Shown one piece after another: positions 1,001 to 16,700 of a DNA stretch of 64,000 nt (the first letter of the stretch is position 1; every line of letters begins with the position of its first letter). A program made the translations under genes and the position numbers. Below the pieces are notes generated by a model that was not told the DNA's origin, searched no databases, and saw only the letters and a list, made by a program, of their open reading frames with translations. The stretch is from Candidatus Spongiisocius sp. (GTDB taxonomy: Bacteria > Actinomycetota > Acidimicrobiia > Spongiisociales > Spongiisociaceae): positions 1,600,882 through 1,664,881 of the forward strand of contig OZ241858.1 in the NCBI GenBank assembly GCA_965203035.1. The letters run 5' to 3'.

Positions 1001-1789
1001 CTAGGAAGTCGGGAGGGGGCTGAGTAGGCGGGTGTCGATTAGGGCTTGGAAGTGGTTGGCGACGCTGGTGGCCAGAACTCGGTGGCGGATCAGGACGCCT
1101 AGCTCGATGTTTCGGTCGAGGGCGGCGGCGGTGAGGTTGGCGGAGGTGATGAAGACGGCCTCGTCGTCCACCACCACGGCTTTGGCGTGGAGTACGCCGG
1201 TGGGGCCTTCCGGGTCTAGGGAGCGGGGGTCGTAGTAGACGGCGGGCTTGGACGTGCCGGGCCAGTCCTTTCCCCAGAACTGGTCGGTGAAGCGACGGAC
1301 GAGTTGGTCTTCGGAGGTCTTGTCGCCACGGGCGCGCTGGATGTTCAGCAGGATCGTGACTCTCAGACCGGGGATGCCGTCGAGGCGTTGGGCCAGGTGG
1401 GCGAAGGCTTGGGGGCCGTCGAAGTAGGCGTAGGTGCTCACCCACACGGACCGCTCGGCGTTGTCGAACAACTCCTCGTAGACGCGGCGGGTGTCGCGGG
1501 CGTGCAGGCCCGGCACCTCGGGGCCTGACCACACCAGGTCGGGCGACGGAGCCTTGGCGGATGCTTGCTCCACGGAGCGAATCCACGCTGCAACCGCTCG
1601 CCCCGAGATTCCGAGACGTGCGAGTTGGTTGATCTCGCTGATTATCTCCTCAGCACCATCTCCGATTCCAACCTCGGATTCGAGAGACAACCGGCTTGGG
1701 CGATCAGGGAGAAGGCCATAGTCGAAGGCGTCGGCGAGCTTCCGCAATAGATTCGAGGGAAGCGCCTGGATGTGGTGGCCCGCGAACAT
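1001..1789 (-). CDS. drmC: DISARM DrmC, phospholipase-D-like (HKD) nuclease
   Basis: Single HxK(x4)D..S.N motif 'HAKAVVVDDEAVFITSANLT'. Start ATG at 1789 overlaps the drmB stop by 1 nt. The N-terminal extension in the 327-aa track ORF is Arg/Pro-rich GC artefact. Last gene of a drmD-drmMI-drmA-drmB-drmC arrangement. Confidence 0.8.
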   Translation of the reverse strand: MFAGHHIQALPSNLLRKLADAFDYGLLPDRPSRLSLESEVGIGDGAEEIISEINQLARLGISGRAVAAWIRSVEQASAKAPSPDLVWSGPEVPGLHARDTRRVYEELFDNAERSVWVSTYAYFDGPQAFAHLAQRLDGIPGLRVTILLNIQRARGDKTSEDQLVRRFTDQFWGKDWPGTSKPAVYYDPRSLDPEGPTGVLHAKAVVVDDEAVFITSANLTAAALDRNIELGVLIRHRVLATSVANHFQALIDTRLLSPLPTS

Positions 1790-3612
1790 CAGCTCATAGG
1801 GAAGAAGGCGGCGTCTTCGTGGCCGAGTACCGGCACTACGAGCGCCCTGTCGAGGTAGTCGTTGCGCATCTCGCAGGAGGTCTCGGCGATCAGGGTGCAT
1901 CCGTGACAGGCGGCGCCGTGCAGCCCACGCTCCTCGAAGTCCTGATGGGCGGTGTGCTGGGCGCAGATCGGGTCGTTGGAGCACAGCTTGCCCATCTCCA
2001 GAGCGTGGGCGAGGTGTTGCTCGAAGTGGCGGGCCTGCTGGACGAGGCCGCCCAGCGTTCCCTCGGCATCCGGACTCCCCGTGTAGAGGAGGATGCCGTA
2101 GTTGCCGGACTCTACGTACACCCGCTCACGGATGGAACTGGCCGGGTATCCGCAGCGCATCGCCATCGACTGGATGAGCAGGTGAGCCAGGGTATGCAAC
2201 AGGATGTACGGGCCGCCGGGGAACCCATCCGGCCCCTTACCTCGGCTTTGCCGCCAGGCCTTGTGGCCGTCCAGCAACTCGTTGATGCGGTCCTTGACAG
2301 GCGGGCGCTTCAACCAGGCATCGACCGCTGAGGGGTGCAGATGGGCGAACACGCCCTCTCCCCGGTTCTCGACGGCGGGGAACCATTCGGGTTCGATGGC
2401 GAGGTCGGCTCGTTCCACGTCGGTTTCGTACTCGCCGTGGATGTCCCGGACCGCCGCCTCGAAGCGGGTGAAGCCGATCAGGGCTAGAACCTCGCGCAGC
2501 CGGTGGAGCTGGAACACCGACTCGACTCCGCTGCTGATCCCGGAGTCCGGGTGCCTCCAAACATTGTCCGGCAGCCGCCGGGCGTGGAAGTCAGGATCAA
2601 CCGGCACGTCATCGCCGAACCCCTCGGGCGCGCTGAGTATGGCCTCGATCTCGGCTTCCTTGATGGACCGGTCGGATCCGGTCCCGCTGCGACGCTGTTC
2701 GATCGCCCGCATCACCTCGGCGTCGGCGAAGGGGCTCAGCGCCTCGGCAATCTTCGGTTTCCCCTTGATGAAGCTGAGGTGGAGAGGTTCAAGCACGATC
2801 TGAAGGTCGTCCCAGAGGTCGTTGACCACCCGCTCGACGGCAGTGCCCCGGTCTGGCAGGGAGAGGATGCCGACTACCTGGGGAAAGTAGGCGTTGGAGG
2901 CCGTACGGATGAGGAGCCGGCTCGGGTGGTTGCAATCCTCGGCGGTGTTCAGGCCGAGCCAGGGCCGTGTGCCTCGACAACCACCGAGCGGCCGGGTACT
3001 GATATCCGTGGCCTCGTAGAGGCGTCGCGACTTGCGACACTCGCACCGGACGACCAAGTCGGCCAGGTCCCCGGTGGTTCCTTTCTCGTCGAGCCAGAGT
3101 TGACGCCCGCAGCGTTTGCCTCGGCCGTGCACGAATCCAATCCAATCGAGGTCGTCGACGTGTCCCCTCGGGCAGGCCCGTACGAATCGGGTGGGAACCA
3201 CGGATCGACCCTCGTAGCGCCCCTTATCGTCGAGGGTCCTCCGATGCACGAGCCGGCGGGAGCGGGTCCGCCCCTTCCGAGCGGAGGGCTCGGCCCCACC
3301 AGCGCCGGACAGGTTGGCTTCCTGCACTACGAACCACTCGGGGAACCGCCACGCGCCGATGCCCTGTCCCGACGCCCAGGGTTCGGACGGTTCGGGCGGG
3401 GGAGCGTACATCTTCGGCGCCGGCACACCCGTGATGAGCCGGAGAAAACCGGTGAGCCGCGCGTCCACGACCTCGGTAAGGCCGGCCGGGCTCGGCCAGG
3501 TATCGAGGCCGCCGACGATGGCGGCATGATCGGGTAGGTCGATCAGCGCACCCGGCCCGTAGGTGGTGATCACCTGGCTCTGGCGGATCTGCCCGTGGGC
3601 CTTGGGACTCAT
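1789..3612 (-). CDS. drmB: DISARM DrmB (DUF1998-type, C-terminal Cys cluster)
   Basis: ~607 aa from internal Met 'MSPKAHGQIRQSQVITTYGPGALIDLP'. C-terminal 'CAQHTAHQ...CHGCTLIAETSCE' zinc-ribbon-like cluster typical of DUF1998. Lies between helicase drmA and PLD drmC. The track ORF N-terminus (3612-3837) overlaps drmA and is an artefact. Confidence 0.75.
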   Translation of the reverse strand: MSPKAHGQIRQSQVITTYGPGALIDLPDHAAIVGGLDTWPSPAGLTEVVDARLTGFLRLITGVPAPKMYAPPPEPSEPWASGQGIGAWRFPEWFVVQEANLSGAGGAEPSARKGRTRSRRLVHRRTLDDKGRYEGRSVVPTRFVRACPRGHVDDLDWIGFVHGRGKRCGRQLWLDEKGTTGDLADLVVRCECRKSRRLYEATDISTRPLGGCRGTRPWLGLNTAEDCNHPSRLLIRTASNAYFPQVVGILSLPDRGTAVERVVNDLWDDLQIVLEPLHLSFIKGKPKIAEALSPFADAEVMRAIEQRRSGTGSDRSIKEAEIEAILSAPEGFGDDVPVDPDFHARRLPDNVWRHPDSGISSGVESVFQLHRLREVLALIGFTRFEAAVRDIHGEYETDVERADLAIEPEWFPAVENRGEGVFAHLHPSAVDAWLKRPPVKDRINELLDGHKAWRQSRGKGPDGFPGGPYILLHTLAHLLIQSMAMRCGYPASSIRERVYVESGNYGILLYTGSPDAEGTLGGLVQQARHFEQHLAHALEMGKLCSNDPICAQHTAHQDFEERGLHGAACHGCTLIAETSCEMRNDYLDRALVVPVLGHEDAAFFPMS

Positions 3613-3614
3613 CG

Positions 3615-6600
3615 TCAGGAGTCCGACAGGGATGCGGTGAGCGGCTTGATGTGCAGGTTCACGTCCGGCTCCACGTCCCGCAGCGAGCGGTTGGCGCGGA
3701 ACTTGCGCTGGTGGGGCGAGTCGAACTCCTCCTCGAGTATCTCCCGGAGCAGGCGTCCGGGGCCCCTGCCCGACTCGTACTTCTGGTACTTCACGGCGCT
3801 GTTGACGATCTGGTAGTGCTCCACCACCGCCAGCCACGAGTCGAGCAGATCGACCACCCGGGCAGCCACGCTCTGGCGCCGATCCTCTCGCTCCGCCTCG
3901 TCATCCAACGGTTGGCTATCCACTCGTTCCTGGAAGAGTTCCCGCAGCCGTTGCTCGACCGCGGCCCGCACGGTCGTGAGCGAAGTGACACCGCCGGGCG
4001 GCGTCAGGACCGGTTGGGCGTGGCGGGCGTATCCGACCAGCGCGCCGGCCATGCCCCGGTCGAGGGCGCGCGCCGAGAACGGCGTGACGCTCGACGCCTC
4101 GACGGGCCGGTAGAAGGTCTCGTGGTAGTGGCGGAACCGTTCGTAGTGGGACCGGTCGCGAGGCTTGTGGACGTTGAGCAGCGTGACCACCAGTCCCGGC
4201 TTGCGGTCGTCGCGGCCTACGCGGCTGGTGGCCTGGATGTACTCGGCGTGGGTCTTGGGCTGGCCGAGCACCACCATCAGCCCGAGGCGGGGAATGTCGA
4301 GGCCCACCGAGATCATGTTGGTGGCGATGGCGCTGTCCACCCGATCCCTCTCGTGCGCGCCGCGCCCGAGGCGGCGCCGTGCCTCGGCCACCTTGGCGGT
4401 GGGAACCCGAGACGTCAGCTCCACGACCTCCGAGAAGGTCCGGCGATCCCGGAACAGGCCCTCCTGGTAGTTCTGGCCGATGCGCCTCCGTCCCCCGGAG
4501 GCCTTGACGGTGTTGCGGACCTCCTCCTCGAGGATGCGCCTCGCCCCACCCAGTTCGCGAAGGCTGTTGAAGTAGCCGAGCACGGTCATGTACGGATCGG
4601 CCGGGTTGTCCTCGTTGCGGTGCCCGCCGGAGTCCCGGTAGGCGCGCTCGGCCGCTCCCATGAGGGCCAACCAGACGCGACGCATCAAGGTCTTCGGGTT
4701 CCGGCCCGGTGACGCGATGCCGAGATAGAGCCGGCCGGGTACCTGATCGTTCGGAACGATCTCGGCGAAGAACGAGTCGCGCCGGTCCGGTCCAGGAGGC
4801 GGGAAGATCCGGGTGTTGGATCGGGCGAACAGGGCTTGGATCTGGTCCTGAGCCTGGCGCACCGTGGCGGTGGAAGCCACGATCTTGGGCAGCACGTCAG
4901 GGGTGGAGGCGTCTCCCTGATGATCGGTACCGGCGGCCCGCACGCACAGCGCCTCGATCACAGTCTCGTACAGCCCGGCCATGGTGCCGAGGGGCCCGGA
5001 TATCAGGTGCAGCTCGTCCTGGATCACCAGGTCGGGCCCGGGGAGCGGCCGCCCGAGGGGCTGGCCCTGCTTCGGGTCGGCGGCGCCGTAGAACCCGGCT
5101 TCGTCATAGCGATCCGCCCCGCCGAGCAATGCCCCGGTCTGGGCCGTCCACGGAAGCGAGGCGAACTTGTCCACGGTGGCGATCAGGAAGGCGGGAAGGC
5201 GGCGGTAGATGGGCTCGTCCACGCCCAGGATCGGCAGAGGGCGGTCCCCGCTGAAGTCGCACTCGAAGTCGGCGCAGACGATACGAAGCTCGGTCGGTGT
5301 GTCATCGTCGGGCCTTAGATCGAACGACGCCGGCTGGAAACGGGTGTCGCACCACGGGCAACTCTCCAAGGGGATGGGCAACGGCTTCCCCGTCGGGTCG
5401 GCCTTGAACCGGATGGTCTTGGACCGGGCCGAGTCCGACCGCCCATCGCCCTTGCGGCCCATGATGTTCGGGGTAGCCGCCTTGCCGACCCACAGGCCGA
5501 TCTCGAACGGCCAGACTCCGTAGCGCTCAGGGTCAGCCTCGCGTTCGAGTTCGAGCGCGCAGACGAGACCGGCCGCGCGGGCTAACTGGTCGAGCGTGAG
5601 CAGACGCAGCGTGTAGCGCATGATCACAGCGACCCCGGCGCCGTGCCTGCCGTCCTGGCCGGGGTTGCGGAGGCGCCTCAACACTATGGAGAAGGCGGCA
5701 AGACCCAGGTATGCCTCGGTCTTCCCGCCGCCGGTCGGGAAGAAGAGCAGGTCGACGATCTTGCGATGGGAGTGGTGCGGGTCGCCGAGGCCGGGAAGGT
5801 TCAGCAGGATGAAGGCCAGCTGGAACGCCCGCCATCGCGGGGCCGGCTCGTCAGGCCCGAGCCGCTGGCGCAGGGCTCGGGCCACAGCACGGTTGGCCAT
5901 CCTGAAGGCGTCGAGGGCATCAGGATCGTTAGCGAGAAACTCGATGCCGCTCTCGATGCGGGCGGCGGCGATGCCGGCGTGACGCAGCAGCTCCTCTGCG
6001 GTCTCCCGACGGTCGCCGTTGTGCGCTCCGAGACCGTCGCGCTGCGCATCGATCCAGGATCGATAGTGGTCCACGAGTGGGTTCAGCGCTGCGGAGGCAT
6101 CCTCGCCGTCGGCCAGAGCGCCGAGGGCCTCCATCGACAACTCAACCTCCGGGATCTTCACGGGCTCGGTCTTGGCGACGGTCGCGCTGGGGATCCAGGC
6201 CGTGCGCAGCAGGCGGCAGTCCCCATGGACCATCTCCCACTCGGCGGACACGCCGTGACCGACGGCGTACTCGGGCGTGTCGGCGTAGTGGAGGTCGGCA
6301 ACCCGGTCGTCCCACTCCGCAGCCGCCATCCCGCGGGGGTCGGGCCGGGGAACGAAGGACTCGTTGCATGTGACTTCGAGTTCCGCCTGGAATGCGTAGG
6401 CTCGGTCGGCAACTCCGGCACCAGCCGGCTTGCTCGGGACGGGCGGCCGATTGTTCACGAGAAACACCGACACCGACCGGGTTCCACGGGGGAGAGCGGC
6501 TAGACGGCGGCCGTGGATCGGCCTGGAGACGACATGCAGCCGCAGACCGCCGGACGCCGGAACCCGGTGATCGGGAGGGTCCGAGAGGTCCACCCGCACG

Positions 6601-7100
6601 GTTCGCTCCTGCGCCCTCCTCCGCCAGACGGATAGCGGTTTGCCTTCCGCATCCTCCCCCTCGCCAGGCGTGTAGTCGCCCCAGCGAACCGTCACTTCGA
6701 GTGCGCCGGTGTCCTCGGACACGAGGAAGCTCAGACCAATCGAGGACGGGAAGAAGCCCTTCTTCGCCGCCCGCCGTTCGTCGGCGGACTCCTCGACCAG
6801 CCCGGCGGTGTCCGGGACCTCGTCGAGGGAGTCGTCCTCGTCAACGTCGCTCCGGTCCTCGAACGGCGTGTCCGACGGGATCAGGAACCCGGTCAGGTAC
6901 CAGTTCGACGGTCTCCTCCAACCGGGCAGTAGTTCATCGGCGAGGTCGTGACCGGCGCCTGGTCCCACAAGGTCGAGCTTCAGCGCCTCGACCAGGTACT
7001 CGCGCACCTGCGCTGAGTCGGCGAACGCGAGTGACGACGGTGGGGAGTCAGCGATCATGCGGATGTACTGTAGGCAGAGCGCCTGACACGGAACAGCCAA
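3615..7100 (-). CDS. drmA: DISARM DrmA, DExH-box helicase (1161 aa)
   Basis: Walker A 'FFPTGGGKTEAYLG', DExH 'VIQDELHLISGPLGT', C-terminal helicase motifs. TTG start at 7100, with an in-frame stop 2 codons upstream. Confidence 0.8.
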   Translation of the reverse strand: MAVPCQALCLQYIRMIADSPPSSLAFADSAQVREYLVEALKLDLVGPGAGHDLADELLPGWRRPSNWYLTGFLIPSDTPFEDRSDVDEDDSLDEVPDTAGLVEESADERRAAKKGFFPSSIGLSFLVSEDTGALEVTVRWGDYTPGEGEDAEGKPLSVWRRRAQERTVRVDLSDPPDHRVPASGGLRLHVVSRPIHGRRLAALPRGTRSVSVFLVNNRPPVPSKPAGAGVADRAYAFQAELEVTCNESFVPRPDPRGMAAAEWDDRVADLHYADTPEYAVGHGVSAEWEMVHGDCRLLRTAWIPSATVAKTEPVKIPEVELSMEALGALADGEDASAALNPLVDHYRSWIDAQRDGLGAHNGDRRETAEELLRHAGIAAARIESGIEFLANDPDALDAFRMANRAVARALRQRLGPDEPAPRWRAFQLAFILLNLPGLGDPHHSHRKIVDLLFFPTGGGKTEAYLGLAAFSIVLRRLRNPGQDGRHGAGVAVIMRYTLRLLTLDQLARAAGLVCALELEREADPERYGVWPFEIGLWVGKAATPNIMGRKGDGRSDSARSKTIRFKADPTGKPLPIPLESCPWCDTRFQPASFDLRPDDDTPTELRIVCADFECDFSGDRPLPILGVDEPIYRRLPAFLIATVDKFASLPWTAQTGALLGGADRYDEAGFYGAADPKQGQPLGRPLPGPDLVIQDELHLISGPLGTMAGLYETVIEALCVRAAGTDHQGDASTPDVLPKIVASTATVRQAQDQIQALFARSNTRIFPPPGPDRRDSFFAEIVPNDQVPGRLYLGIASPGRNPKTLMRRVWLALMGAAERAYRDSGGHRNEDNPADPYMTVLGYFNSLRELGGARRILEEEVRNTVKASGGRRRIGQNYQEGLFRDRRTFSEVVELTSRVPTAKVAEARRRLGRGAHERDRVDSAIATNMISVGLDIPRLGLMVVLGQPKTHAEYIQATSRVGRDDRKPGLVVTLLNVHKPRDRSHYERFRHYHETFYRPVEASSVTPFSARALDRGMAGALVGYARHAQPVLTPPGGVTSLTTVRAAVEQRLRELFQERVDSQPLDDEAEREDRRQSVAARVVDLLDSWLAVVEHYQIVNSAVKYQKYESGRGPGRLLREILEEEFDSPHQRKFRANRSLRDVEPDVNLHIKPLTASLSDS

Positions 7101-7112
7101 CCCTCAGGCAAG

Positions 7113-7143
7113 GCACCCTCGTGTCCGCGCTCACGGCGAGGGT
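7113..7143. promoter_or_regulatory. perfect 8-bp-stem hairpin (caccctcg N15 cgagggtg) immediately upstream of the drmA start; possible operator or 5' structure
   Basis: Seen directly in the sequence. Lies in a ~200-bp divergent intergenic region between drmA (-) and the plus-strand small-protein operon. Confidence 0.25.
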
Positions 7144-7306
7144 GTTAACGAGATGCCGGGATGTCAACCTCTAAGGTTTTTTGGCGTTCTACTATGTCGA
7201 GCCACGATTGGCACAGGTAGAGAGTAGTGTACGATAGAGCAGGGGCACGCTGGCCAGCGGCCCGGCACCGTGATCCATGCGGATGGCACGTTCGAGGAGG
7301 TAGAGG

Positions 7307-7507
7307 ATGACCACGACATATCACATGACGCGTGAGGAGCTGTGGCAGGAGATGGAAGCTCGTCTTGAGGAGGAGCGGATGACCGTCGAGGAGTTCCGCG
7401 CCGAGGGCGAGGCGGACACGCTCACCGATGCCGAACTACGCGAGCTCTGGTTGATGTACAGGCCACTCCTGTTCGACGATGAAGAATCCCACTGGGAGGA
7501 TCGCTAG
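7307..7507 (+). CDS. small acidic protein P1 (66 aa), paralog of P2
   Basis: Shares 'EGEADTLTDA' and the flanking pattern with the next ORF. Strongly acidic. Its stop overlaps the GTG start of P2. Confidence 0.5.
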   Translation: MTTTYHMTREELWQEMEARLEEERMTVEEFRAEGEADTLTDAELRELWLMYRPLLFDDEESHWEDR

Positions 7508-7695
7508 TGGCCGAAGTAAGGATCGTCACGAACGAACAGATGATCGAGGAGGTCAAGAGCATCCTTGAGGCTGAGCACATGACCTTCGAGCGTTTCGTCT
7601 CCGAGGGGGAGGCAGATACGCTTACCGATGCTTTCCACAGGGATCTATGGCTCGACTATCGCGAGTGGATCCGAGACTGGATCAACGACACATGA
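7507..7695 (+). CDS. small acidic protein P2 (62 aa), paralog of P1
   Basis: GTG start overlapping the P1 stop. 'FERFVSEGEADTLTDAFHRDLWLDYR' aligns with P1. Its stop overlaps the ATG of the next gene (ATGA). Confidence 0.5.
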   Translation: MAEVRIVTNEQMIEEVKSILEAEHMTFERFVSEGEADTLTDAFHRDLWLDYREWIRDWINDT

Positions 7696-8387
7696 CACAG
7701 TCGTTACTCCGTCCGGCCTCCGAATCCTTCGCCGATCGACTCAACAGAGTGGTCGCGGCAGCGCTAGAGACCGATCTGCGGTTCGTGGCCAGCGTGGCGA
7801 GCAACGGTAGGCGTGCGAACGTTCGAGCCTCCGCAGTTCCGAACCGCAGATCCGACGGGTTCCCTCTGGTTCGCCTTAGCGACATACCTGGAGCACCGGC
7901 GATGTTTCTTCTGCCGAGGTTCTTCGTCGAGATCAGTCCTGAGACCGCCCGCCTTCGGGTCGCGACCTCCACCATTGGGTTGTGGGTGGACATCACCGGC
8001 GGCCGCAAGCCACCACGTCCGTTGATACGGGTCGAATACGATCGTCGACTCGATACGGGCCATGGGGCGGCCGCGCATGTTCATGTTCACGCTCACTCGC
8101 CTGAACTGGCCTGGCTTTACGGCTCCAGCGGTCTGGCTGCCCCCAATCTTCATGCTCTGCACTTCCCGGTTGGTGGTAGGAGGTTCCGACCGACACTCGA
8201 GGACTTCCTGCTCTTCCTGGACAGGGAGAACATTTTCACCCATTTCAAGGAAGGATGGAAGACCACCGTGCTGCGATCACTTCGAGAATGGGAGGAAATC
8301 CAGGCGAGGTCGACGGTACGGCAGTATCCCCGATTGGCAGCCGATGCCCTGCGAGATATGGGTTATAGAGACCTGAGGTGTGGTTAG
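7692..8387 (+). CDS. hypothetical protein P3 (~231 aa, His-rich segment 'HVHVHAHSPE')
   Basis: Internal Met of track ORF 7647..8387, coupled to P2 by an ATGA overlap. No recognised domain. Third gene of the plus-strand operon embedded in the DISARM locus. Confidence 0.45.
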   Translation: MTQSLLRPASESFADRLNRVVAAALETDLRFVASVASNGRRANVRASAVPNRRSDGFPLVRLSDIPGAPAMFLLPRFFVEISPETARLRVATSTIGLWVDITGGRKPPRPLIRVEYDRRLDTGHGAAAHVHVHAHSPELAWLYGSSGLAAPNLHALHFPVGGRRFRPTLEDFLLFLDRENIFTHFKEGWKTTVLRSLREWEEIQARSTVRQYPRLAADALRDMGYRDLRCG

Positions 8388-8830
8388 CAGTCGGACTGAT
8401 TCGACCATCGTTCCGTCGTGTTGTACGCAGAGAACAAGGCGGGAAAGAAGCCCTTCTTCGCCGTCCGCAGTTCCTCGGCCAATTCCTCCGCTAACCCGGC
8501 TTTCTCCGGCACCTCGTCGAGGGATTCGTCCTCGTCCAGGTCGCTGCGGTCCTCGAACGGCGTGTCCGACGGGATCAGAAACCCGGTCAGGTACCAGTTC
8601 GACGGTCTCCTCCATCCGGGCAGTAGTTCATCGGCGAGGTCGTGACCGGCGCCGGGTCCCACCAGGTCGAGCTTCAGCGCCTCGACCTGGTGGGAGCGCA
8701 CATCCGACGAATCGGCGAACGTCAGCGACGACGGCGGGGAGTCAGCGATCATGCGGACGTACTGTAGGCAGGGCGCCTGACACGGAACGGCCAACCCTCA
8801 GGGAGGCATGCACGGGCCACCGCTGCGGCA
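8384..8830 (-). pseudogene. degraded 5' copy of drmA (first ~115 codons plus ~10 nt upstream), roughly 85% identical to authentic drmA by eye
   Basis: Track ORF 8384..8794 translates to 'MAVPCQAPCLQYVRMIADSPPSS...GFFP', matching the drmA N-terminus, then diverges to a stop. Nucleotides 8700-8830 align with 7020-7120. Confidence 0.7.
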
Positions 8831-8892: not shown

Positions 8893-9336
8893 TCAGCGAC
8901 CGGCAGCTCTGGCTGCCTTTTCGATCCAAGTGCCAAGGTTATCGTAACCCTTATGCCATTTCCAAAGATAGAAGGGGTAACCGCGTGGAATCCTGCCGCA
9001 ACGCGAGCTAGTTTTCCCGGCGAGATCTTTGATCTTACTTATATCGACCCCCAGAAGGCCATTGCCACGTTCTTTGCTCGCCTTGATCTCGTACTTGACC
9101 CATTTGCTCCTGCACGTGTGCGACCCCACAAGAACTACTGTGACCGAAGTTCCCTTCAGTTGTTCATCAATCCAGTTCTTGATCGCCTCGTCTCCGCGCT
9201 GTTTGATCTCTTCGAATTCGGCCTTGTCAATGAATCCGGACGCTTCCTTGCCCTGAGTAACCCAACTATTGCGGACAACCATCGCTCGCGAGACATCGTG
9301 GTCGTACTCGAAACTGAAGAATACCCGGCGAGCCAT
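8893..9336 (-). CDS. TIR-like domain protein (DUF1863 / ThsB-like), 147 aa
   Basis: 'RVFFSFEYDHDVSRAMVVRNSW...SVTVVLVGSHTCRSKWVKYEI' matches the DUF1863 TIR-like pattern (FISY..D......W......S..V.vL.S......S.WV..Ei). Local GC ~50% versus ~68% in flanking DNA. Confidence 0.6.
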   Translation of the reverse strand: MARRVFFSFEYDHDVSRAMVVRNSWVTQGKEASGFIDKAEFEEIKQRGDEAIKNWIDEQLKGTSVTVVLVGSHTCRSKWVKYEIKASKERGNGLLGVDISKIKDLAGKTSSRCGRIPRGYPFYLWKWHKGYDNLGTWIEKAARAAGR

Positions 9337-9355: not shown

Positions 9356-9751
9356 TTAGCTGACTAGAACAGCAACTAGAACACCTATTGCTACAGCCAT
9401 ATAGAAGCTGACAAGTGTCACAGAGAACATCGAGGAGCGCCATGCCAGTTTCGTGCCCTTGAATCGGTTTGTTCTCATCGAGAAGTCGATCTCCTCAGGC
9501 TGCAGGAGACGCACGTGATCGTACAGAGCACGGTACAGTCGTTCTTGGCGAAGGAAATAGGCGTCTAAACCCCAGAACACCAGCGTAGGGAGAAGGCCAA
9601 CCAGCGCCCAGTCGCTTTCGCCCTGCCGCGAAACCAGCACGAGTAGGGCGGAAACCAGCACGACGCTCCACCCCTTCAACATGAAGGAGTTGAAGGCCAT
9701 GCGGTTGATGACACCCTGGATCAGTTCCAAGTGCTTCAGCTTGGATTCCAT
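9356..9751 (-). CDS. small integral membrane protein (~131 aa, 3 predicted TM helices); possible SLATT-like effector
   Basis: Start chosen at 'MESKLKHL' with GGGAGGG 6 nt upstream. Hydrophobic segments 'WSVVLVSALLVLV', 'WALVGLLPTLVFWGL', 'FSVTLVSFYMAVAIGVLVAVLVS'. Sits 19 nt upstream of the TIR-like gene on the same strand, in the same low-GC block. Confidence 0.55.
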   Translation of the reverse strand: MESKLKHLELIQGVINRMAFNSFMLKGWSVVLVSALLVLVSRQGESDWALVGLLPTLVFWGLDAYFLRQERLYRALYDHVRLLQPEEIDFSMRTNRFKGTKLAWRSSMFSVTLVSFYMAVAIGVLVAVLVS

Positions 9752-9844
9752 CCACACCCTCCCGGCGGCGAACCTCATGCGCCTGACGTGACTGCGACTC
9801 CGGCGCGTGAGCCCAAGTCTAGTGACTGCTTTGCCAGAGGTTAC

Positions 9845-10180
9845 GGGGCGAAGGGATCGCTGTGGACGGAGCGGGACGAGTCTCCGGCGCTGGGAACGCC
9901 GTGCCGGATTTGGCGGTCTTGGTGGGCTTGGCGAGGCCGGCGCGGGCTGCTTCGGCGGTGCGTTGGGCGTTGAGTTCCAGGAAGCGAGCCAGCACCTGGT
10001 CGCGGACGGCGTCGGGCCATCGGTAGCGGTAGGACTTCTTCGTCCTGCCCGAGGTCTCCCCATCGGTCTCGTAGTCGAGCAGGTGCTCGCAGTCCGTTGG
10101 GATGTCGGTCCAACCGTGGGCGTCAAGTACTGCTCAATCCATGGCGGTGCGCAGACGACGGAGTTCGTCGATCTCGGGGA
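9845..10180 (-). pseudogene. degraded 3' copy of drmMI (last ~100 codons) with an in-frame TGA
   Basis: Minus-strand translation '...AVLDAHGWTDIPTDCEHLLDYETDGETSGRTKKSYRYRWPDAVRDQVLARFLELNAQRTAEAARAGLAKP' matches the drmMI C-terminus. Nucleotides 9930-10180 align with 13870-14110. Confidence 0.65.
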
Positions 10181-10562
10181 TCGTTCGAGTGTTCTCAGCG
10201 ACTGCACGCAGGGCCCACCCTGACGCCGCGTGGCTCGTGCGTTGTGACGCCCGCGAGCGGATGTTTGATGTGGTGCTCCCGATTCTGGTCGACATCGCTG
10301 GCAGCCGAGACGTCGATGTGACCCCGGCCCCGTTCTGGCGACCCACCCAGACGTCGCTGTACGGCGACCGGGTCACCTAACCCGGAGAGATGGACCTGCT
10401 CGTGCGTCCCAGAACGACGACAGCCCGAACCCACGGCCCCGCGGCCCTCGGCCTGTAGGCCAAGACGCGGCCACTTCCCCACGTAAGGAGACCAGAATTG
10501 CTACTCCGTCCACCCCCTGCAAACCCCTCGATCCGTGAAGAGTCAGCGCTAGTCTTCGACGA

Positions 10563-12058
10563 GTGACCGAAGGAACACTGTCTGAGATCGCTGCTTGGCT
10601 GGACGAGGAGGCCGACTGCCAAGAGTTCTTCAGCCGTATTAGTGTTTCCCTCAACCGGCGCTTCGAAGTAGACGATCCGCTGGCTCCTCTCCCGTGGGCC
10701 TTCGACTACAGGCTTCTTGCGAGGTCCGACGAACGGTATGAAGGTCATGGTCCCTTCGGCCCGCTGTTGGAGACCACTGATGGACAACATCCGCCCCCAC
10801 TTGACCAGATTCCTGAAGAGGCAGTTTCTCTGTGGGAGAAGCTGAGCGGACTTGTCACGCATCCGTATTTGAAGGCGCGCCTGAACGACCTGATGTGGGA
10901 GCGACGCTGGTCTGACAGCCCCCACTTGTACGCTGGTACAGCTATCGATGCATATCTGGCACTGGGTCCTCCGGTAGCCGACGGGATGGAGTATGTGAAC
11001 GCTCTCTCTCGCGCGGCTGGGCTGGCACGGCAGATCAATGATGGTCAGCGGCGCCAGCTCGTCGTTGAAGCCGCTCTGCGCCGCGCCCAGGCAGAACTTG
11101 CCGGTGCCGAAGCGAAGCCAGGGATCGCCCTCCGTCTATTGGACGTAGTCCTCGATGATGACGGTGAGGGAGTCAGGGATAGAGTGGCCAGCTTGTTGGA
11201 GCAGGCTAACAAAGTATTCGATGATCCGTGGATTAGGAATAAAGTCATTGACCGGCAGATAGCTTTCTCATCTGGTGAGCGAGAACGGCGAAAGGAGCTG
11301 GAACTCCAAAAGGTCAATACTTGGATCCGGCGCGCCTCGACCGAAACCGGAATGAGGCGGCGGATTTTCTTGATGAGCGCACTGGAGCACGCCCGCACTT
11401 ACGGCTTCCGTGGCCAAGCGGAGCAGATCCGGCGGGAGATACAAGAGATCGAATTCAGTGAGGACAGCATGCAGAGCATCTCTGCCACAGTTGAGGTGCC
11501 AAGTGACGAAATCGAGAATACGATCTCTCAGATCAGCTCCGCTGGTACGTGGGCTGGCTGCTTGGATCGCCTGCTGTTCTTCGGGCCTCTGAGTGGCAGT
11601 CTGAAAGAGAATATCGAGCATGTCCGCCAGCAAGCAGAACAGTTCGTGGTCCAGCACCTGGTCCCCTCTGAAGTCTTAGGTCCTTGGAATGAGACTGTTT
11701 TCGTTGCTCATACTGAAGAACAGAAACAAGAATACAATCTGTCTAATTTTGAATCAATAGGTATCCAGATGAATAGCTATATCGTGGCTGCGGCTCTTGA
11801 GGCTATACAGGTCACCCACGGAATTCCCGCGAAGGACGAATTAGAGGACTTCTTCTCGACACCTTTCATTGACGAAGGCACCGCCGAACGGATAGCGGCG
11901 AGTGTCCTGCACTATGTCGTAGGCCAGTTTGATGAGTGTATCATGGTTCTTATTCCTCGGATCGAGAGGACAATACGGCAACTCATCCGCGAGATTGGTG
12001 CGCCAACCTGGTTGGAACCTAGATCAGGCGGATTCGGGAAACAGCGTTCGCTATACCG
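10563..12058 (+). pseudogene. N-terminal ~498 codons of a ~577-aa gene interrupted by ISL3 insertion (GTG start)
   Basis: Track ORF 10563..12122. Its last ~20 codons read into the IS inverted repeat. The ORF resumes after the 8-bp target duplication at ~13499. Confidence 0.6.
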
Positions 12059-13490
12059 GCTCTCCGCGTTTCAGTGGGGAGTGAGGGTGGTCAATAGGTC
12101 CCAGTTGGGTTTGCCGGCGTAGAGGAGGGCGCGGATTCGGTAGTTCGCGAAGTTGCGGAACCCGAAGGCTGTGCGTTTGACGCGTTTGATGAGGTTGTTG
12201 AGGGCTTCGGTGGGTCCGTTGGTCACGCGGGAGATGTGCCAGTTGGTGATCTGGGGGGTCCAGCGGGCGATGGTTCGTCCTAGTCGGTTGATCTCTGGTG
12301 GACAGGATTCGTCTTGGAGGTCGTCAGCCAACTGGAGGGTGTAGGAGAGCGCGGTGGCGATGCTGTCTATCTGGTAGATGCCTCGGACGGTTTCTTTGGC
12401 GTGCCAGGCGGTGCGGACTTCGCCGTGGGGGTCACCGGCGTCCAAGAGGCCACGGAGCCGTGTTTGGCCACCGTCGCTGATGCGTTCGGATGCGGCGGTG
12501 AGGAGCCGCCGTATCCGATACAGCGGATCGCCTTTTCGGCCTCTGTGCCCGAGGGTTTCGTTCTGGACCCGGCGCCGGACTTCGTCGAGCCGCTGGTTAG
12601 CCAACCGGATGACATGGAACGGGTCTGCGACTTGTGAAGCGTGGGGCAGCACCCGGTCATATGCGGTCCGATAGGGGCCGGAGAGGTCCAACACCGCCCA
12701 CAGGATCTGATCCCGCCATTCCTGGGACTGTTCCCGAAACCAGGATGCGGCGCTTTCTGCTGTCCTGCCAGGGACTATGTCCAACAGCTGGCGACCTCCC
12801 ACATCGACCACAGAGGTCGCCCACTGGGGGATACGCCACCTTCCCTGACGCCAGAACAACGTCTCATCGACCCCCACAGCTTCCACAGCCCCGAAACGGG
12901 AAGTGTCGGCTTCCAGCAGCGCTTCACCCCACCTTGCCACCTCTCCGTTGACCGTATGCCACCCACAACCCAACTCCGCAGCGACCTCTTGGACCGAACG
13001 GCCCAACCGCCCCACCTGGACGGTCGCCCACCTGGCCGCCCGAGACGTCAACAATCCACGCACAGGCGCAATCCCCGCATCCTGTTCGATAAACGAGCTG
13101 ACCGCACACTCAGAACTCGGGCACATCCAGCGCCGCTTCCGCCACCGCAGACGAACCGGCCGACCGAACGCCGGCAGATCCACCAACACCACCGTCCGCT
13201 CGCCCTTGGACCACACCCCTCCGCCACAGCCCCCACACATCGGACGGGACAGGCGAGACCCGATCACAACCTCCAACGGCGCCCCATCGCCCCCGTCGTC
13301 GATCCCGACCAACTCCACGTCGCCCAGACCCACCAACAACTCACACATGCGCGTAGGATCAGCTTCCACAGGGGTCCTCCTGCCTCGGATGTCATTGCTG
13401 AACTCCGATTATGGAGGACCCCTCCTCACTTCTAGTGGATTCCGAACCCCCGCACAGATCCCCCCACTCCCCACCCATTCGCGAAGAGCC
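12058..13490 (-). mobile_element. ISL3-family insertion sequence (~1.43 kb) with 8-bp target-site duplication GCTATACC
   Basis: Terminal inverted repeats GGCTCTCCGCGTTTCAGTGGGGAGTGAGGG (left) and GGCTCTTCGCGAATGGGTGGGGAGTGGGGG (right, reverse complement). GCTATACC repeated directly at ~12050-12058 and ~13491-13498. Confidence 0.85.
12071..13369 (-). CDS. ISL3-family DDE transposase (432 aa, GTG start)
   Basis: Characteristic C-terminus '...TNGPTEALNNLIKRVKRTAFGFRNFANYRIRALLYAG' plus the 'GVDE' region. Confidence 0.9.
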   Translation of the reverse strand: MEADPTRMCELLVGLGDVELVGIDDGGDGAPLEVVIGSRLSRPMCGGCGGGVWSKGERTVVLVDLPAFGRPVRLRWRKRRWMCPSSECAVSSFIEQDAGIAPVRGLLTSRAARWATVQVGRLGRSVQEVAAELGCGWHTVNGEVARWGEALLEADTSRFGAVEAVGVDETLFWRQGRWRIPQWATSVVDVGGRQLLDIVPGRTAESAASWFREQSQEWRDQILWAVLDLSGPYRTAYDRVLPHASQVADPFHVIRLANQRLDEVRRRVQNETLGHRGRKGDPLYRIRRLLTAASERISDGGQTRLRGLLDAGDPHGEVRTAWHAKETVRGIYQIDSIATALSYTLQLADDLQDESCPPEINRLGRTIARWTPQITNWHISRVTNGPTEALNNLIKRVKRTAFGFRNFANYRIRALLYAGKPNWDLLTTLTPH

Positions 13491-13769: not shown

Positions 13770-16700
13770 CTAGAGGTCGGTCTCCCACAGTGTCCTGGAC
13801 GTAGTGGTGCCGGTGAACGCCCCATCAGAGCGCCGACGCTGCGGCGCGTTCTCCCCACTCATGGGCTTTCTGAGGCCGGCGCGGGCTTCTTCGGCGGCGC
13901 GTTGGGCGTTGAGTTCTAGGAGGCGGGCTAGCACCTCGTCGCGGATGGGATCGGGCCAGCGGTAGCGGTAGGGCTTCTTCTTTCTGCCCCAGGTCTCCTC
14001 GTCGATTTCGTAGTCGAGTAGGAACTCGCAGTCCGTGGGGATGTCGGTCCAGCCATAGGCGTTCAGCACAGCTCGATCCATGGCTGTGTGCAGACGACGG
14101 AGCTCGGTGATCTCGGCATCGTTCTCGTAGGGATCGTGGAAGCGGTTGTAGATCTTGGTCATCCCCTCGCCATAGCGAACCATGAGCGCCGCCCGGAATT
14201 CATAGTACTCACTGCCGACTGCTTCAAAATCGTAGCGGCTCCGCCAGTTCTCAGGAAACGGAAAAGTCTCGAAACAATCCGACGGCGTATAACGCAGGTC
14301 GTCCTTCATTGAAGATCCAAAGAATAGTGCCCAAGCTTCGTGAGGTCGTGCCTGTAGAGCGGAAAAGGCGGCGTAGTTCTCGACCGGATAGACGTTTAGC
14401 GTGTGTCCATACACCATATTTGACGGCAGGAACGCAAACTGTACATGGTTGCTAACCTGAGAGTTAGCTAGTACACGCGCTAATTTGTCGACTCTGCTAT
14501 AGAGTTCCTTTGCATGATGAACGAACTGCCACCAGATGGACGCTCGTTTGCCATGACCTGACTTACTGATTCTCGCCGACTCCATCCGCTCTGGCCTAAC
14601 TGACTCCTCTATAATCGAAAGGAGATGAGGATATAGGTAGCGGCATTCCTCCAGTGCCATTTCTCCGAAGTTAATTACGAATCGGTGATGTGATTGTGTC
14701 GCGCTAGTGTTAAGTTCCTTGCCTCCAATATAAGGGAATATCACGTTGCCATAGTGGGGATTCTCTCTCAGGAGATCTCTCATTGTCTCTATCGGTGTAG
14801 CAAGGCCTCCGCGCCCTGCATCGTCGAAGGAAAACCCGCCAATCCCAAGAATATAGCTGCCAACGAAGCTACTTCCTATATTGGTTCGAAGAGGTAGTGG
14901 GTCATCGTGGCCACCTCTATTGGACAAGAAGGCGGTAATCTTGTCAACGACCTGCCCATCTATGTATCTATGACCGCCGTATTGGCCCTTGCTGATGTGG
15001 ACGATACTCACGACTACTGCGGCTAGCCCCGGCCAACTGACGCGTCGACGAGCGTTATATATCTGACCGCCCTTCTTACAGATCCAACGTAACCCGCTGG
15101 CACGTGTATCTCCTTGGGCAATAGTGTTGGTGGCGATTAAACCTAGTGTCCCATTCCGGCGGATCAGATCGTAGGATCGCCGATAGAAGTGAGCGACTAC
15201 ATCGCACTTACCTGTGCTCTCAGGATGGGTCAGCCTCAACCACTGTGTGTAGCCGCGCACGTTAGCGTTGACAACTGTGTTATGGCCACCGAACGGTGGG
15301 TTGCCGACTATGGTGTCAAACCCTGGGTTGGGCCGGTCGAAGACTTCGGGGAACGCAATCTGCCAGTGGAACGGGGCAAGTGGTGGATCACCGTACCGTA
15401 GTTCGGTCAGCCATCCCTTGTACTGACCGGCGGACCCGTTGAGCACCGCGGACGCGAACTTCTTGCGGCGCTCCTCCCGAGCCTTGGGCTTGGACTCATC
15501 GAAGAAGGCGGCCAGTACCAGGTCACCGAGCATCTGCACCTCGTCCGTCTCGTCCCGCGCTTCCCGCCACCAGGCTCGTCGTTCCCAGTCGGACACGGTG
15601 TCATCCGCCTCGCGGATTCGACGGCGCAGATCGTTGGCGCGATCGAGGTGTTCCTGTCCTCGCAGTGCTTCGAAACCGGCCTGGAAGATGGGGGCTTTGC
15701 CCTTCCAATGGAAGGTCCGTGTCTGGGGTATCGAGAGTCCCACCAGCGAGTCGCCGTGTCGCAGGGCGTGATCCAGGAAGGTCAATGGATGGTCCTTGGC
15801 CAGGGTGATCAGCCAGAGTGACAGCTTGGCGAGATCCACGGCCTTGGGGTTGCGGTCCACTCCGTAGAGGCAGCGCTGGGCCACCAGCCGCCGGGCGAAG
15901 ATCTGCTCGTCCTCGTCGGGCGGGATCTCGGGCATGGCGTCGTGGGCGCGCCACGATTCGATGAGTTGATCGGCGAGTTGGCGGCAGGCCTCCACCAGGA
16001 AGGCAGCCGATCCCATGGCCGGGTCGCACACCTTGAGGTCGAGAATCTGATCGGGACGGACCGGGCCGCCGGCCTCGGTAGCTAGCCGATCCAGGATGGG
16101 TTCCAGCGCCTTACGGACGATGGGCTCGGTGAGCTCGCGGGGCGTGTAATGCGAGCCGGACTTTCGGCGTTCCTCGCTCGGCTGCAGCACCATGGCGCCT
16201 GCCGCTACCAGGTCCGGAGTGGCGTTGCGATCAAGAACCGAATCGAGCGCCGCATGCATCTCGTCGAGGGAACCAGACTCCCGAACCGCCTTACCCACCT
16301 TTGTGGTGAGCGTGCGGTCGGTACGGTCCCGGATCCACTTGACCCGCTTGGACGGTTCCTGTCCCAGTAGGGCTTCGAGGTTCACCGTGGCGGGAGCGCC
16401 ATGCTTCTTGGTGGCCTTGATGGCAACGCTCCGGCCTGAGGCGGTCTCGAGGCGGAAACCCATCATGGTCTCGTAGACCGAGCCGATGTGCTCCACATCA
16501 AGCGCCCGGTAGGAGATGCGCTCGGCGTCCAGGACGATGAGCTTCTCCAGCACCCGGTGGATCGTGCCGTCCCCGATGCGCGGCGGCTCGATCCTCTCCA
16601 ATGTCTGCCGCGGGCCGAAGTCACGGCCTTCGAGGAACGGGTAGCGATCGGGGCGGAAGAGATCGCCGTACTTGGGCGCCATTGACATCTGCCCGGCGTT

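What the first reader, a model, noticed from the sequence alone, without database searches (positions are those of the whole stretch)
7307..8387. Plus-strand 3-gene operon inside the DISARM locus: two tandem paralogous, extremely acidic ~65-aa proteins plus a 231-aa His-rich protein, all translationally coupled
P1 and P2 share a conserved core (…M(T)…E.F..EGEADTLTDA…R.LWL.YR). Both carry a net charge of roughly -12 to -14. They are linked by overlapping stop/start codons (TAG/GTG and ATGA) to a 231-aa protein with no recognisable domain. The operon is divergent from drmA, sharing a ~200-bp intergenic region that contains a perfect hairpin. It converges on the drmA remnant. Small acidic proteins are typical of DNA-mimic anti-restriction or antitoxin-like regulators. 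Their presence on the opposite strand inside a restriction-like system suggests a regulatory, immunity or anti-toxin role, or a new toxin/antitoxin-like defence cassette.
Basis: partly seen in the sequence, partly recalled or inferred. Interest (0 to 1): 0.65.

Follow-up and report, generated by a model that had tools for sequence, protein, structure and literature searches.

The report
Unannotated toxin–antitoxin-like cassette inside DISARM
The three genes are real and belong to a previously unannotated two-gene family of Actinomycetota (a tiny acidic protein plus a ~230-residue basic protein) that behaves like a self-contained toxin–antitoxin or abortive-infection cassette. It has lodged in one lineage of DISARM loci and is not a part of DISARM itself.

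Summary
P1 (7307-7507), P2 (7507-7695) and P3 (7692-8387) are conserved coding genes with overlapping stop/start codons. They lie divergent from drmA and are followed by a drmA 5' remnant.

P3 defines a family of about 870 clusters at 50% identity. All loci with a named organism are Actinomycetota. No Pfam, NCBIfam, PADLOC or PHROG model matches, and a confident AlphaFold model has no Foldseek match in PDB or BFVD.

At least 62 of 68 full-length homologs have a 45-75 aa acidic gene just upstream, 47 with a 4-nt overlap. The pair is multi-copy per genome and forms tandem arrays. It sits in unrelated neighbourhoods, on a Rhodococcus plasmid and in the integrase-proximal slot of Mycobacterium abscessus prophages. 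Decayed P3 copies keep intact small genes.

P2 is the cognate partner of P3. P1 is a solo small gene of a second subtype, the one next to drmA in every DISARM locus of this lineage. More distant DISARM loci have drmMI abutting drmA with no cassette.

Best reading, all inferred: an autonomous toxin–antitoxin-like module. P3 is the effector, with a conserved AHxH…HFPxGGxRFRPxLED site. P2 neutralises it and P1 is an orphan antitoxin. A DISARM-regulator or DNA-mimic role is not supported.

The parts
7208..7235 (+). Promoter-like site of the P1-P2-P3 operon (TTGGCA, 16 nt, TACGAT)
   Evidence: Consensus scan. The TTGKCA box and a TAGNNT box about 17 nt downstream are conserved in 13 orthologous intergenic regions. 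Function is inferred, not shown.
7307..7507 (+). P1: 66-aa acidic protein (charge -14), a solo small gene of the 'P1 subtype' (putative orphan antitoxin)
   Evidence: Its orthologs (67-89% identity) are the first gene after the drmA intergenic region in every DISARM locus of this lineage. The closest relatives of the window's P3 pair with P2-type partners, not P1-type. The AlphaFold model has three helices, pLDDT 79.
7507..7695 (+). P2: 62-aa acidic protein (charge -10), cognate partner of P3 (putative antitoxin)
   Evidence: The stop overlaps the P3 start (ATGA). P2-type orthologs accompany the nearest P3 relatives: L085 78%/69%, L015 64%/59%, L009 62%/59% (small/P3 identity). By tblastn, L084 has 97% and L018 87%.
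7692..8387 (+). P3: 231-aa basic protein (pI 10.65), putative effector/toxin of an unannotated family
   Evidence: 207 homologs. 870 cluster representatives at E<=1e-3. AlphaFold pLDDT 85.5, pTM 0.85. No Foldseek hit at E<0.001 in PDB or BFVD. No profile hit in PDB sequences, Pfam, PADLOC or NCBIfam. Family-wide invariant residues are P159, G161, R166, E170, Q204; H129, H157, R164 and D171 are conserved in at least 90%.
7059..7306 (.). Intergenic region shared with divergent drmA. It contains the P1 promoter-like site and a conserved GTACTGTAGGCA next to the drmA ATG. The 8-bp hairpin at 7114-7144 is not conserved.
8442..8802 (-). drmA 5' remnant, a direct repeat of 6748-7108 (89%), bounding the cassette on its far side
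   Evidence: Similar remnants flank modules in L018, L085, L087 and L088.
6748..7108 (-). 5' end of the intact drmA plus about 50 nt of leader; the other copy of the direct repeat
   Evidence: L084 carries the cassette together with only about 60 nt of this segment, outside any DISARM locus.

Best explanation
P2-P3 is an autonomous two-gene toxin-antitoxin-like (possibly abortive-infection) module of a family not yet described. It is not a DISARM component.

P3 is the effector. It is a basic protein with a variable N-terminal helix-plus-beta-sheet region and a conserved C-terminal region. That region carries a His/Arg/Glu site, AH(129)xH on a beta-strand plus the loop L-H(157)-F-P-x-G-G-x-R-F-R(166)-P-x-L-E(170)-D. 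I read this site as a metal- or phosphate-binding catalytic centre acting on a nucleic acid or nucleotide.

P2 is made first from the same transcript and is translationally coupled. It is the acidic three-helix inhibitor that binds and neutralises P3. P1 is an orphan inhibitor of a sister subtype whose own P3 partner has been lost; it may buffer against related toxins.

The cassette entered the drmMI-drmA junction of one DISARM lineage, leaving a drmA 5' duplicate. There it turns over by duplication, deletion and recombination with paralogs.

Shown: gene structure, conservation, pairing, copy number, mobility, and independence from DISARM. Inferred: toxicity, neutralisation, catalytic site and target.
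For: 1. Obligate pairing. At least 62 of 68 full-length P3 homolog genes have a 45-75 aa acidic ORF (median charge -7) ending at their start, 47 with a 4-nt overlap. Most of the other six have a small ORF too; they failed the charge cutoff or were missed through a misplaced P3 start. Small-protein and P3 identities co-vary (Spearman 0.76).
2. Opposite charges: -14 and -10 against +9.
3. Copy number and turnover. Several diverged copies occur per genome, with tandem arrays: L001 x4, L012 x3, L018, L085.
4. Decay asymmetry. Frameshifted or truncated P3 genes keep intact small genes in L001 copy 1, L047, L053, L073 and L084. Solo small genes occur in the window (P1), L018, L028 and L088. No clear case of an intact P3 without a small gene was seen.
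5. Autonomy and mobility. Neighbours are unrelated from locus to locus, with a sprinkling of helicase, HNH, Schlafen, PIN, Fic and type I R-M genes. The same P1-P2-P3 unit occurs at 93% DNA identity outside DISARM in L084. The pair lies on Rhodococcus plasmid pDK3 beside integrases and transposases. It also lies between integrase and lysis genes of M. abscessus MabE1 prophages, a slot that holds other cargo in prophiGD04-1. Att-linked loci of mycobacteriophages are described as holding TA and defence genes (PMC8092301).
6. Not core DISARM. Canonical drmMI-drmA adjacency is seen in L089, L090, L091, L093 and L095.
7. An enzyme-like set of invariant polar residues sits in the conserved half of P3, while the N-terminal 90 residues vary.
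Against: - No experiment and no homology to any known toxin or antitoxin supports the reading.
- The small protein shows no detectable DNA-binding domain. A ribbon-helix-helix reading of its N-terminus was not supported by profile or fold searches.
- At 231 aa, P3 is large for a type II toxin.
- Many neighbours of non-DISARM copies are ordinary metabolic genes, so there is no strict defence-island enrichment.
- A complex of P2 with P3 could not be modelled.
- Recurrence of the cassette at the same DISARM junction in about ten loci could still reflect a functional link.
Confidence: 0.5

Rival explanations
1. The cassette is a DISARM accessory. P1/P2/P3 would regulate drmABC from the shared divergent promoter region, or protect the cell from DISARM autoimmunity.
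For: About ten DISARM loci of one lineage carry at least one module at exactly this place, divergent from drmA: the window, L005, L006, L007, L013, L016, L018, L085, L087 and L088. The P1-type gene and the intergenic promoter elements are more conserved at the DNA level (82-91%) than the adjacent drmA 5' region (73-86%). Inserting a divergent operon between drmMI and drmA must alter how drmABC is transcribed.
Against: Only 6 of 80 P3 loci from genomes are next to DISARM. The same P1-P2-P3 unit exists outside DISARM in L084. More distant class-1 DISARM loci lack it. None of the three proteins has a detectable DNA-binding or regulator domain. P3 at this site is only 53-70% identical between loci whose DrmA is 79-90% identical, which looks like cassette turnover rather than co-evolution with DISARM.
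Confidence: 0.1
2. P1 and P2 are DNA-mimic anti-restriction proteins (Ocr/ArdA-like) that block a DNA-binding enzyme. P3 would be an unrelated passenger or their target.
For: Both are very acidic (charge -14 and -10 in 62-66 residues) with helical models. P3 is basic and could bind nucleic acid.
Against: There is no match to any anti-restriction or anti-defence family in Pfam or PHROGs, and no Foldseek match for P1. The small gene was always found with a P3-family gene or in an array of such modules, unlike stand-alone phage or plasmid anti-restriction genes. The family is rare on viral contigs: 18 loci in 2.9 million contigs, and 2 of 50,697 phage records, both prophages. A 60-aa three-helix protein is too small to mimic a long stretch of B-DNA (my inference).
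Confidence: 0.07
3. P3 is a mobility enzyme (an HUH-type nuclease or recombinase) and the pair is a small mobile element. That would explain tandem arrays and scattered copies.
For: An H-hydrophobic-H motif (AHVHVH) lies on a beta-strand, with HxQ variants in distant members, as in some Rep proteins (the Rep comparison is from my own knowledge). There are tandem arrays and scattered copies. The drmA 5' direct repeat flanks the cassette.
Against: Foldseek gives no hit to any HUH or Rep structure, or to any other. No Tyr is conserved family-wide. Copies within a genome are 50-60% identical rather than near-identical as for active IS elements. The 360-bp direct repeat is a gene fragment, consistent with homologous recombination rather than a target-site duplication. 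No terminal inverted repeats were seen.
Confidence: 0.05
4. The pair is a non-toxic enzyme with a dedicated acidic chaperone or regulatory subunit, such as a stress or metabolic function, and is merely carried on variable DNA.
For: Many neighbours of non-DISARM copies are metabolic or transport genes. P3 has an enzyme-like conserved site. No toxicity data exist.
Against: Multi-copy diverged paralogs, tandem arrays, pseudogenised P3 genes with retained small genes, and carriage on prophage and plasmid cargo slots are not typical of housekeeping enzymes. Distribution is patchy among named organisms.
Confidence: 0.15

Closest known systems
Type II toxin-antitoxin modules (e.g. ParD-ParE, CcdA-CcdB, RelB-RelE)
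   Same: The small upstream gene overlaps a larger downstream gene. The small protein is acidic and the large one basic. There are many diverged paralogs per genome, they are carried on prophages and plasmids, and orphan small genes and decayed large genes occur.
   Different: Neither protein matches any known toxin or antitoxin family. P3 is 231 aa with a fold that Foldseek does not match. The small protein has no detectable DNA-binding domain. Toxicity and neutralisation are untested.
Att-linked, prophage-expressed defence or TA loci of mycobacteriophages (Dedrick et al.; PMC8092301)
   Same: A homologous pair (genes 78 and 77) sits between integrase and lysis genes of M. abscessus MabE1 prophages. 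This slot is variable between related prophages.
   Different: These two genes are annotated as hypothetical. No expression or defence data for them were found.
DNA-mimic anti-restriction proteins (Ocr, ArdA)
   Same: Small and extremely acidic.
   Different: No sequence or fold similarity. The small gene was always found with a P3-family gene or in an array of such modules. The pair is mostly chromosomal.
Two-gene regulators attached to defence operons (CapH-CapP; BrxR/CapW type)
   Same: A small two-gene unit lies divergent from a defence operon and shares its promoter region.
   Different: There is no HTH, WYL or HExxH metallopeptidase signature. The family is mostly found away from defence systems.
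Class 1 DISARM (drmD-drmMI-drmA-drmB-drmC)
   Same: It is the host locus, and all five core genes are intact in the window.
   Different: The cassette is absent from more distant class-1 DISARM loci, where drmMI abuts drmA. It has no PADLOC or NCBIfam DISARM model.

Membership tests
Type II toxin-antitoxin system | Two adjacent co-directional genes, a small one and a larger one, co-transcribed and usually overlapping | tested here: met
   TAGTG and ATGA overlaps in the window. At least 62 of 68 homolog loci have the small gene, 47 with a 4-nt overlap.
Type II toxin-antitoxin system | The larger protein arrests growth when expressed alone | not testable with these tools
   Only indirect evidence: decayed P3 genes keep intact small genes in L001, L047, L053, L073 and L084.
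Type II toxin-antitoxin system | The small protein binds and neutralises the larger one | not testable with these tools
   Indirect only: opposite charges and co-variation of identities, Spearman 0.76.
Type II toxin-antitoxin system | The antitoxin carries a DNA-binding domain (RHH, HTH, AbrB, Phd) for autoregulation | tested here: inconclusive
   The pattern 'short N-terminal strand, helix, G-L-T, helix' resembles RHH by eye. No RHH or HTH hit appears in Pfam or PDB profiles or in Foldseek.
Type II toxin-antitoxin system | Homology of either partner to a described toxin or antitoxin family | tested here: not met
   Pfam, NCBIfam, PADLOC and PHROGs gave nothing: P3 and P1/P2 of the window in all four, 111 diverse P3 relatives in Pfam, NCBIfam and PADLOC, and 31 small proteins in Pfam.
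DISARM (core or conserved accessory gene) | Present across DISARM loci of the class | tested here: not met
   L089, L090, L091, L093 and L095 have drmMI abutting drmA. The cassette is found only where the matched DrmA segment is about 75% or more identical, or only drmA fragments remain.
DISARM (core or conserved accessory gene) | Confined to DISARM neighbourhoods | tested here: not met
   6 of 80 genome loci are next to DISARM. The L084 copy lies outside DISARM. Copies also occur on a prophage and a plasmid.
DNA-mimic anti-restriction proteins (Ocr/ArdA) | Sequence or fold similarity to a known mimic | tested here: not met
DNA-mimic anti-restriction proteins (Ocr/ArdA) | Strongly negative surface charge | tested here: met
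   Charge -14.3 and -10.3.
HUH endonuclease / Rep / IS200-type transposase | HUH motif plus a conserved catalytic Tyr on the HUH fold | tested here: not met
   AHxH is present, with H129 conserved in at least 90%. No family-wide Tyr is seen, and Foldseek gives no match to any HUH structure.
CapH-CapP-type defence regulators | HTH repressor plus HExxH metallopeptidase | tested here: not met
   No HTH or peptidase hit. There is no HExxH in P3.

The most novel reading that the evidence does not exclude
The pair founds a previously unrecognised toxin-antitoxin or abortive-infection family that is widespread in Actinomycetota. Its effector has a new fold and a new His/Gly-Gly/Arg phosphate-binding catalytic loop (HFPxGGxRFRPxLED). 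Its variable N-terminal region, matched to the C-terminal helix of a 60-aa acidic inhibitor, insulates paralogs from each other. In sponge-associated Acidimicrobiia it has turned the drmMI-drmA junction of DISARM into a nested mini defence island, together with a ThsB-TIR/membrane-protein pair. Orphan inhibitors such as P1 would act there as anti-addiction genes.
Probability: 0.35. Interest if true: 0.6.

Novelty: new variant of a known kind. Interest (0 to 1): 0.45.

Why it matters
If P3 is a toxin or effector, it adds a new enzymatic fold and a new cognate inhibitor to the toxin-antitoxin and phage-defence repertoire. The family has about 870 clusters at 50% identity, and every member whose source name was checked is called 'hypothetical protein'. 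It includes genes in Mycobacterium abscessus prophages and in Streptomyces, Corynebacterium and Rhodococcus.

The finding also shows that a multi-gene defence operon (DISARM) can itself serve as an insertion hotspot for other small defence-like cassettes. That matters when such loci are annotated or transplanted: the cassette, the ThsB-TIR pair and the IS element here should not be counted as DISARM genes.

If the module turns out to be ordinary, the practical result is still a clean delineation of what belongs to this DISARM locus and what does not.

Tried and rejected
- **Ribbon-helix-helix reading of the small protein.** It was suggested by eye from the alignment. Profile searches against PDB and Pfam did not support it; the best hits, SurA and EcfA helices, are uninformative.
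- **HUH/Rep reading of AHVHVH.** Rejected: there is no conserved Tyr and no fold match.
- **Fic-like reading of HFPVGGRRFR.** The spacing differs from HxFx(D/E)GNGRxxR and the model is not all-helical. I keep it only as a hint of a phosphate-binding loop.
- **The hairpin at 7114-7144 as an operator or terminator.** It is not conserved and is short enough to arise by chance.
- **Literature search for the motif strings.** It found no paper. A 2025 YprA-family survey that covers DISARM shows no such cassette in the passages that matched my search terms.
- **Word-indexed search with P2.** It returned only two proteins, so P2-type relatives had to be taken from the loci.
- **The one long relative, P0199 (406 aa).** Its extra C-terminal 180 aa has no Pfam hit. 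P0053 and P0189 are frameshifted copies, not chimeras.
- **Apparent PDC-M50A hits all over the loci.** These come from the low-complexity, wrong-frame N-terminal part of ORF 9356-10207, which is really a drmMI 3' duplicate.
Full report
**1. What is in the sequence**

The window carries a class-1 DISARM system on the minus strand (PADLOC and NCBIfam):
- drmC 1001-1984
- drmB 1789-3837
- drmA 3615-7100, with the conserved ATG at 7058
- drmMI 13770-17834
- drmD 17816-21061

Between drmA and drmMI lie 6.7 kb of other genes. The finding is the first block of that gap, on the plus strand: P1 7307-7507 (66 aa), P2 7507-7695 (62 aa) and P3 7692-8387 (231 aa).

P1's TAG overlaps P2's GTG by one base. 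P2's TGA overlaps P3's ATG as ATGA. GGAGG boxes precede P1 and P2. P1 and P2 are 53% identical over 51 residues (E=1.6e-13). Their charges are -14.3 and -10.3; P3 has pI 10.65 and charge +9.

All three genes are under purifying selection. Against orthologs, nucleotide differences pile up at third codon positions (P1 1/1/6, P2 2/1/6, P3 51/34/108).

Downstream, 8442-8802 repeats the drmA 5' end (6748-7108) at 89% identity. The 'perfect hairpin' is an 8-bp stem with a 15-nt loop that is not conserved in orthologous spacers. A TTGKCA / TAGNNT promoter-like pair upstream of P1 is conserved.

**2. The family**

P3 has 207 homologs in the word-indexed search. A profile of 42 of them finds 870 representatives of 50%-identity clusters (648 at E<=1e-10). 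Nearly all are stand-alone proteins of 215-255 aa.

In the species-level genome collection, 198 stretches encode a relative. All but one of the 80 retrieved loci whose record names a lineage are Actinomycetota; the exception is a 5-kb MAG contig binned as Rhodothermaceae. The closest are Acidimicrobiia MAGs, several with 'Candidatus' names built on the Latin or Greek words for sponge (Poriferisocius, Spongiisociaceae). At about 30-35% identity come Demequina, Streptomyces, Brevibacterium, Microbacterium, Corynebacterium, Blastococcus and Micromonospora.

No member matches any annotated family:
- The window's P3 has no hit in Pfam, NCBIfam, PADLOC or PHROGs.
- None of 111 diverse members has a meaningful hit in Pfam, NCBIfam or PADLOC.
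- Every source name that was looked up is 'hypothetical protein'.

The AlphaFold2 model is confident (pLDDT 85.5, pTM 0.85). It has an N-terminal helix, a seven-stranded antiparallel sheet and a helical C-terminal part. Foldseek finds nothing at E<0.001 in PDB or BFVD. Profile searches of PDB sequences find nothing either.

Across the family, P159, G161, R166, E170 and Q204 are invariant. H129, H157, G162, R164, P167 and D171 are conserved in at least 90%. Together they give the signature AHxH ... L-H-F-P-x-G-G-x-R-F-R-P-x-L-E-D.

Among the closer relatives (alignment A1), residues 1-90 are the most variable and 91-180 the most conserved. Across the whole family the conserved core narrows to about residues 151-180.

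**3. The pair is the unit**

At least 62 of 68 full-length P3 genes in the retrieved loci have a 45-75 aa acidic ORF (median 58 aa, charge -7) ending at the P3 start, 47 with the 4-nt overlap. Most of the six exceptions have a small ORF that failed my charge cutoff or was missed through a misplaced P3 start; only the Streptomyces locus L058 is doubtful.

The small proteins are one family with a common layout: a short N-terminal segment, a helix, G-(L/M)-T, a helix, an acidic loop, and an LRDLWL-type helix. P1's model shows three helices. It has no Foldseek, Pfam or PDB-profile match.

Pairwise identities of small and large partners co-vary (Spearman 0.76 over 1891 pairs).

The nearest relatives of the window's P3 pair with P2-type small proteins, not P1-type:

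| Locus | P3 identity | Identity to P2 | Identity to P1 |
|---|---|---|---|
| L085 | 69% | 78% | 50% |
| L015 | 59% | 64% | 41% |
| L009 | 59% | 62% | 40% |

So P2 is P3's cognate partner. P1 belongs to the subtype that normally precedes a different P3 clade (L002, L005, L006, L013), and here it has no partner of its own.

The same P1-P2-P3 trio occurs in L084 (93% DNA identity) and in L085. P1-P2 without a P3 occurs in L018.

**4. How the module behaves in genomes**

- Copies are multiple and diverged within a genome. Several MAGs contribute 2-5 loci.
- Tandem arrays occur: four modules in L001, three in L012, and two or three in L014/L020, L018 and L085.
- The small gene can be amplified: three P1-type copies in one open frame in L002, L005 and L007, and two in L028.
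- Decay is asymmetric. Frameshifted or truncated P3 genes retain an intact small gene in L001 copy 1, L047, L053, L073 and L084 (P0053 and P0189 are such frameshifted products). Intact P3 genes essentially always have one.
- Neighbours differ from locus to locus. Among 148 flanking genes from 37 loci, no family occurs more than four times. The most frequent are ResIII/DEAD helicases, HNH/DUF222, Schlafen-AlbA_2, N6_Mtase and PIN. Amidases, MFS transporters and hydrolases are equally common.
- Individual loci show Fic, PIN, Uma2 and T5orf172 (L001) or a type I R-M system (L086).
- The pair also lies on Rhodococcus plasmid pDK3 beside integrases and transposases.
- It lies as genes 78 and 77 between the integrase and the lysis cassette of M. 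abscessus MabE1 prophages. The related prophage prophiGD04-1 carries different cargo in that slot.
- A paper on these prophages notes that att-linked loci of mycobacteriophages hold prophage-expressed TA and defence genes (PMC8092301). It says nothing specific about genes 77 and 78.
- Only 18 loci were found in 2.9 million viral contigs.

**5. Relation to DISARM**

Of 80 loci found through P3, six are next to DISARM (L005, L006, L007, L013, L016, L018). L085, L087 and L088 add three more.

In all of them the module is divergent from drmA, and a P1-type gene comes first after a conserved spacer.

A search that started from the DrmA N-terminus, and so was not biased by P3, gave two outcomes. Two loci with DrmA 88-90% identical have drmMI - PDC-M50A-like gene - ThsB_TIR gene - drmA 5' remnant - P3 - P1 - drmA. 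Five loci whose DrmA N-terminus is 56-64% identical to the query (63-70% in the longer tblastn alignments) have drmMI directly abutting drmA.

The cassette is thus an insertion in one DISARM sub-lineage.

Between loci whose DrmA is 79-90% identical, P3 is only 53-70% identical. drmA 5' fragments recur between modules in L018 and L085. This fits repeated duplication, deletion and recombination with paralogs rather than co-evolution with DISARM.

The direct repeat of the drmA 5' end around the cassette is what Campbell-type integration, or unequal crossing-over through a drmA fragment, would leave. That is my inference.

**6. Most likely mechanism**

I read P2-P3 as an autonomous toxin-antitoxin-like, possibly abortive-infection, module. 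P3 is an enzyme-like effector and P2 is its acidic, co-translated inhibitor. P1 is an orphan inhibitor left after loss of its own partner.

- Shown: pairing, coupling, opposite charge, co-variation, multi-copy and mobile behaviour, decay asymmetry, and independence from DISARM.
- Inferred: that P3 is toxic, that P2 binds it, that the His/Gly-Gly/Arg/Glu site is catalytic and binds metal or phosphate, and that the variable N-terminal part of P3 provides partner specificity.

Confidence is about 0.5. The rivals, with my confidence in each, are:
- DISARM regulator or immunity factor: 0.10
- DNA mimic: 0.07
- HUH-type mobility enzyme: 0.05
- Non-toxic enzyme with a chaperone: 0.15

The evidence for and against each is set out in the Rival explanations section.

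**7. Comparison with known systems, and novelty**

The module works like a type II TA or att-linked prophage defence cassette. It fails the homology test for every described toxin, antitoxin, DISARM, anti-restriction or regulator family that could be tested.

It is best called a new variant of a known kind: the TA-like architecture is familiar, but both components are unannotated and the effector fold is unmatched so far.

Interest is moderate (0.45). A specialist would not be surprised by another TA-like pair in a defence locus. The family's size, its presence in clinically relevant mycobacterial prophages, and the nested-island architecture still make it worth a simple toxicity and rescue experiment.

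Noticed in passing
window 8893-9336 (-) and 9356-~9751 (-): A ThsB-type TIR gene (Pfam ThsB_TIR, E=2.6e-24) lies next to a 130-aa membrane protein that matches PADLOC candidate PDC-M50A. This is a second small defence-like pair nested between drmMI and drmA. The same pair sits at this place in L087 and L088; L002, L005 and L007 have only the M50A gene.
   Followed up: partly
window 9923-10186 vs 13862-14124; 10563-13369: The 3' end of drmMI is duplicated at 84% identity. Between the copies lie a PDC-S39/DUF7380 gene (10563-12122, +) and an ISL3-family transposase (12071-13369, -). The listed 283-aa ORF 9356-10207 is therefore a fusion of the M50A gene with a wrong-frame drmMI remnant.
   Followed up: partly
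L002 5129-6004; L005 and L007 9219-10004: Three P1-type copies, each starting MTTIRYVT, lie in one uninterrupted 291-aa reading frame upstream of P3. They are either a tandem-repeat protein or three small genes that happen to share a frame.
   Followed up: no
L001 4679-8969: There are four tandem modules, the first with a frameshifted P3. The C-terminal halves of the P3 copies are almost identical while the N-terminal ~95 residues differ strongly. This suggests gene conversion or selection for diversity in the N-terminal region.
   Followed up: no
L098 (Mycobacterium phage prophi102-2, MW584173) 1636-2580; L100 (prophiGD04-1): Genes 78 (78 aa) and 77 (232 aa) of M. abscessus MabE1 prophages are a homologous pair between integrase and lysis genes. 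The related prophiGD04-1 carries an 'RNA demethylase' and an 'oxidoreductase' there instead.
   Followed up: partly
window 7061-7072: GTACTGTAGGCA, immediately upstream of the drmA start codon on the other strand, is conserved in nearly all aligned DISARM loci of this lineage, including those whose spacer is otherwise unalignable. It may be a drmA leader or operator element.
   Followed up: no
L084 6563-7881: The P1-P2-P3 unit, with its spacer and only about 60 nt of the drmA 5' end, sits at 93% DNA identity in a non-DISARM context near HNH, DUF3644 and UvrD-like genes. P3 is frameshifted after residue 125 there.
   Followed up: yes
window 7307-8387 vs DISARM genes: GC3 of P3 (0.65) and the GC content of the cassette (0.55-0.60) are below those of drmA, drmB and drmD (GC3 0.78-0.86; window GC 0.654). 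This is consistent with a different origin or weaker codon adaptation.
   Followed up: no
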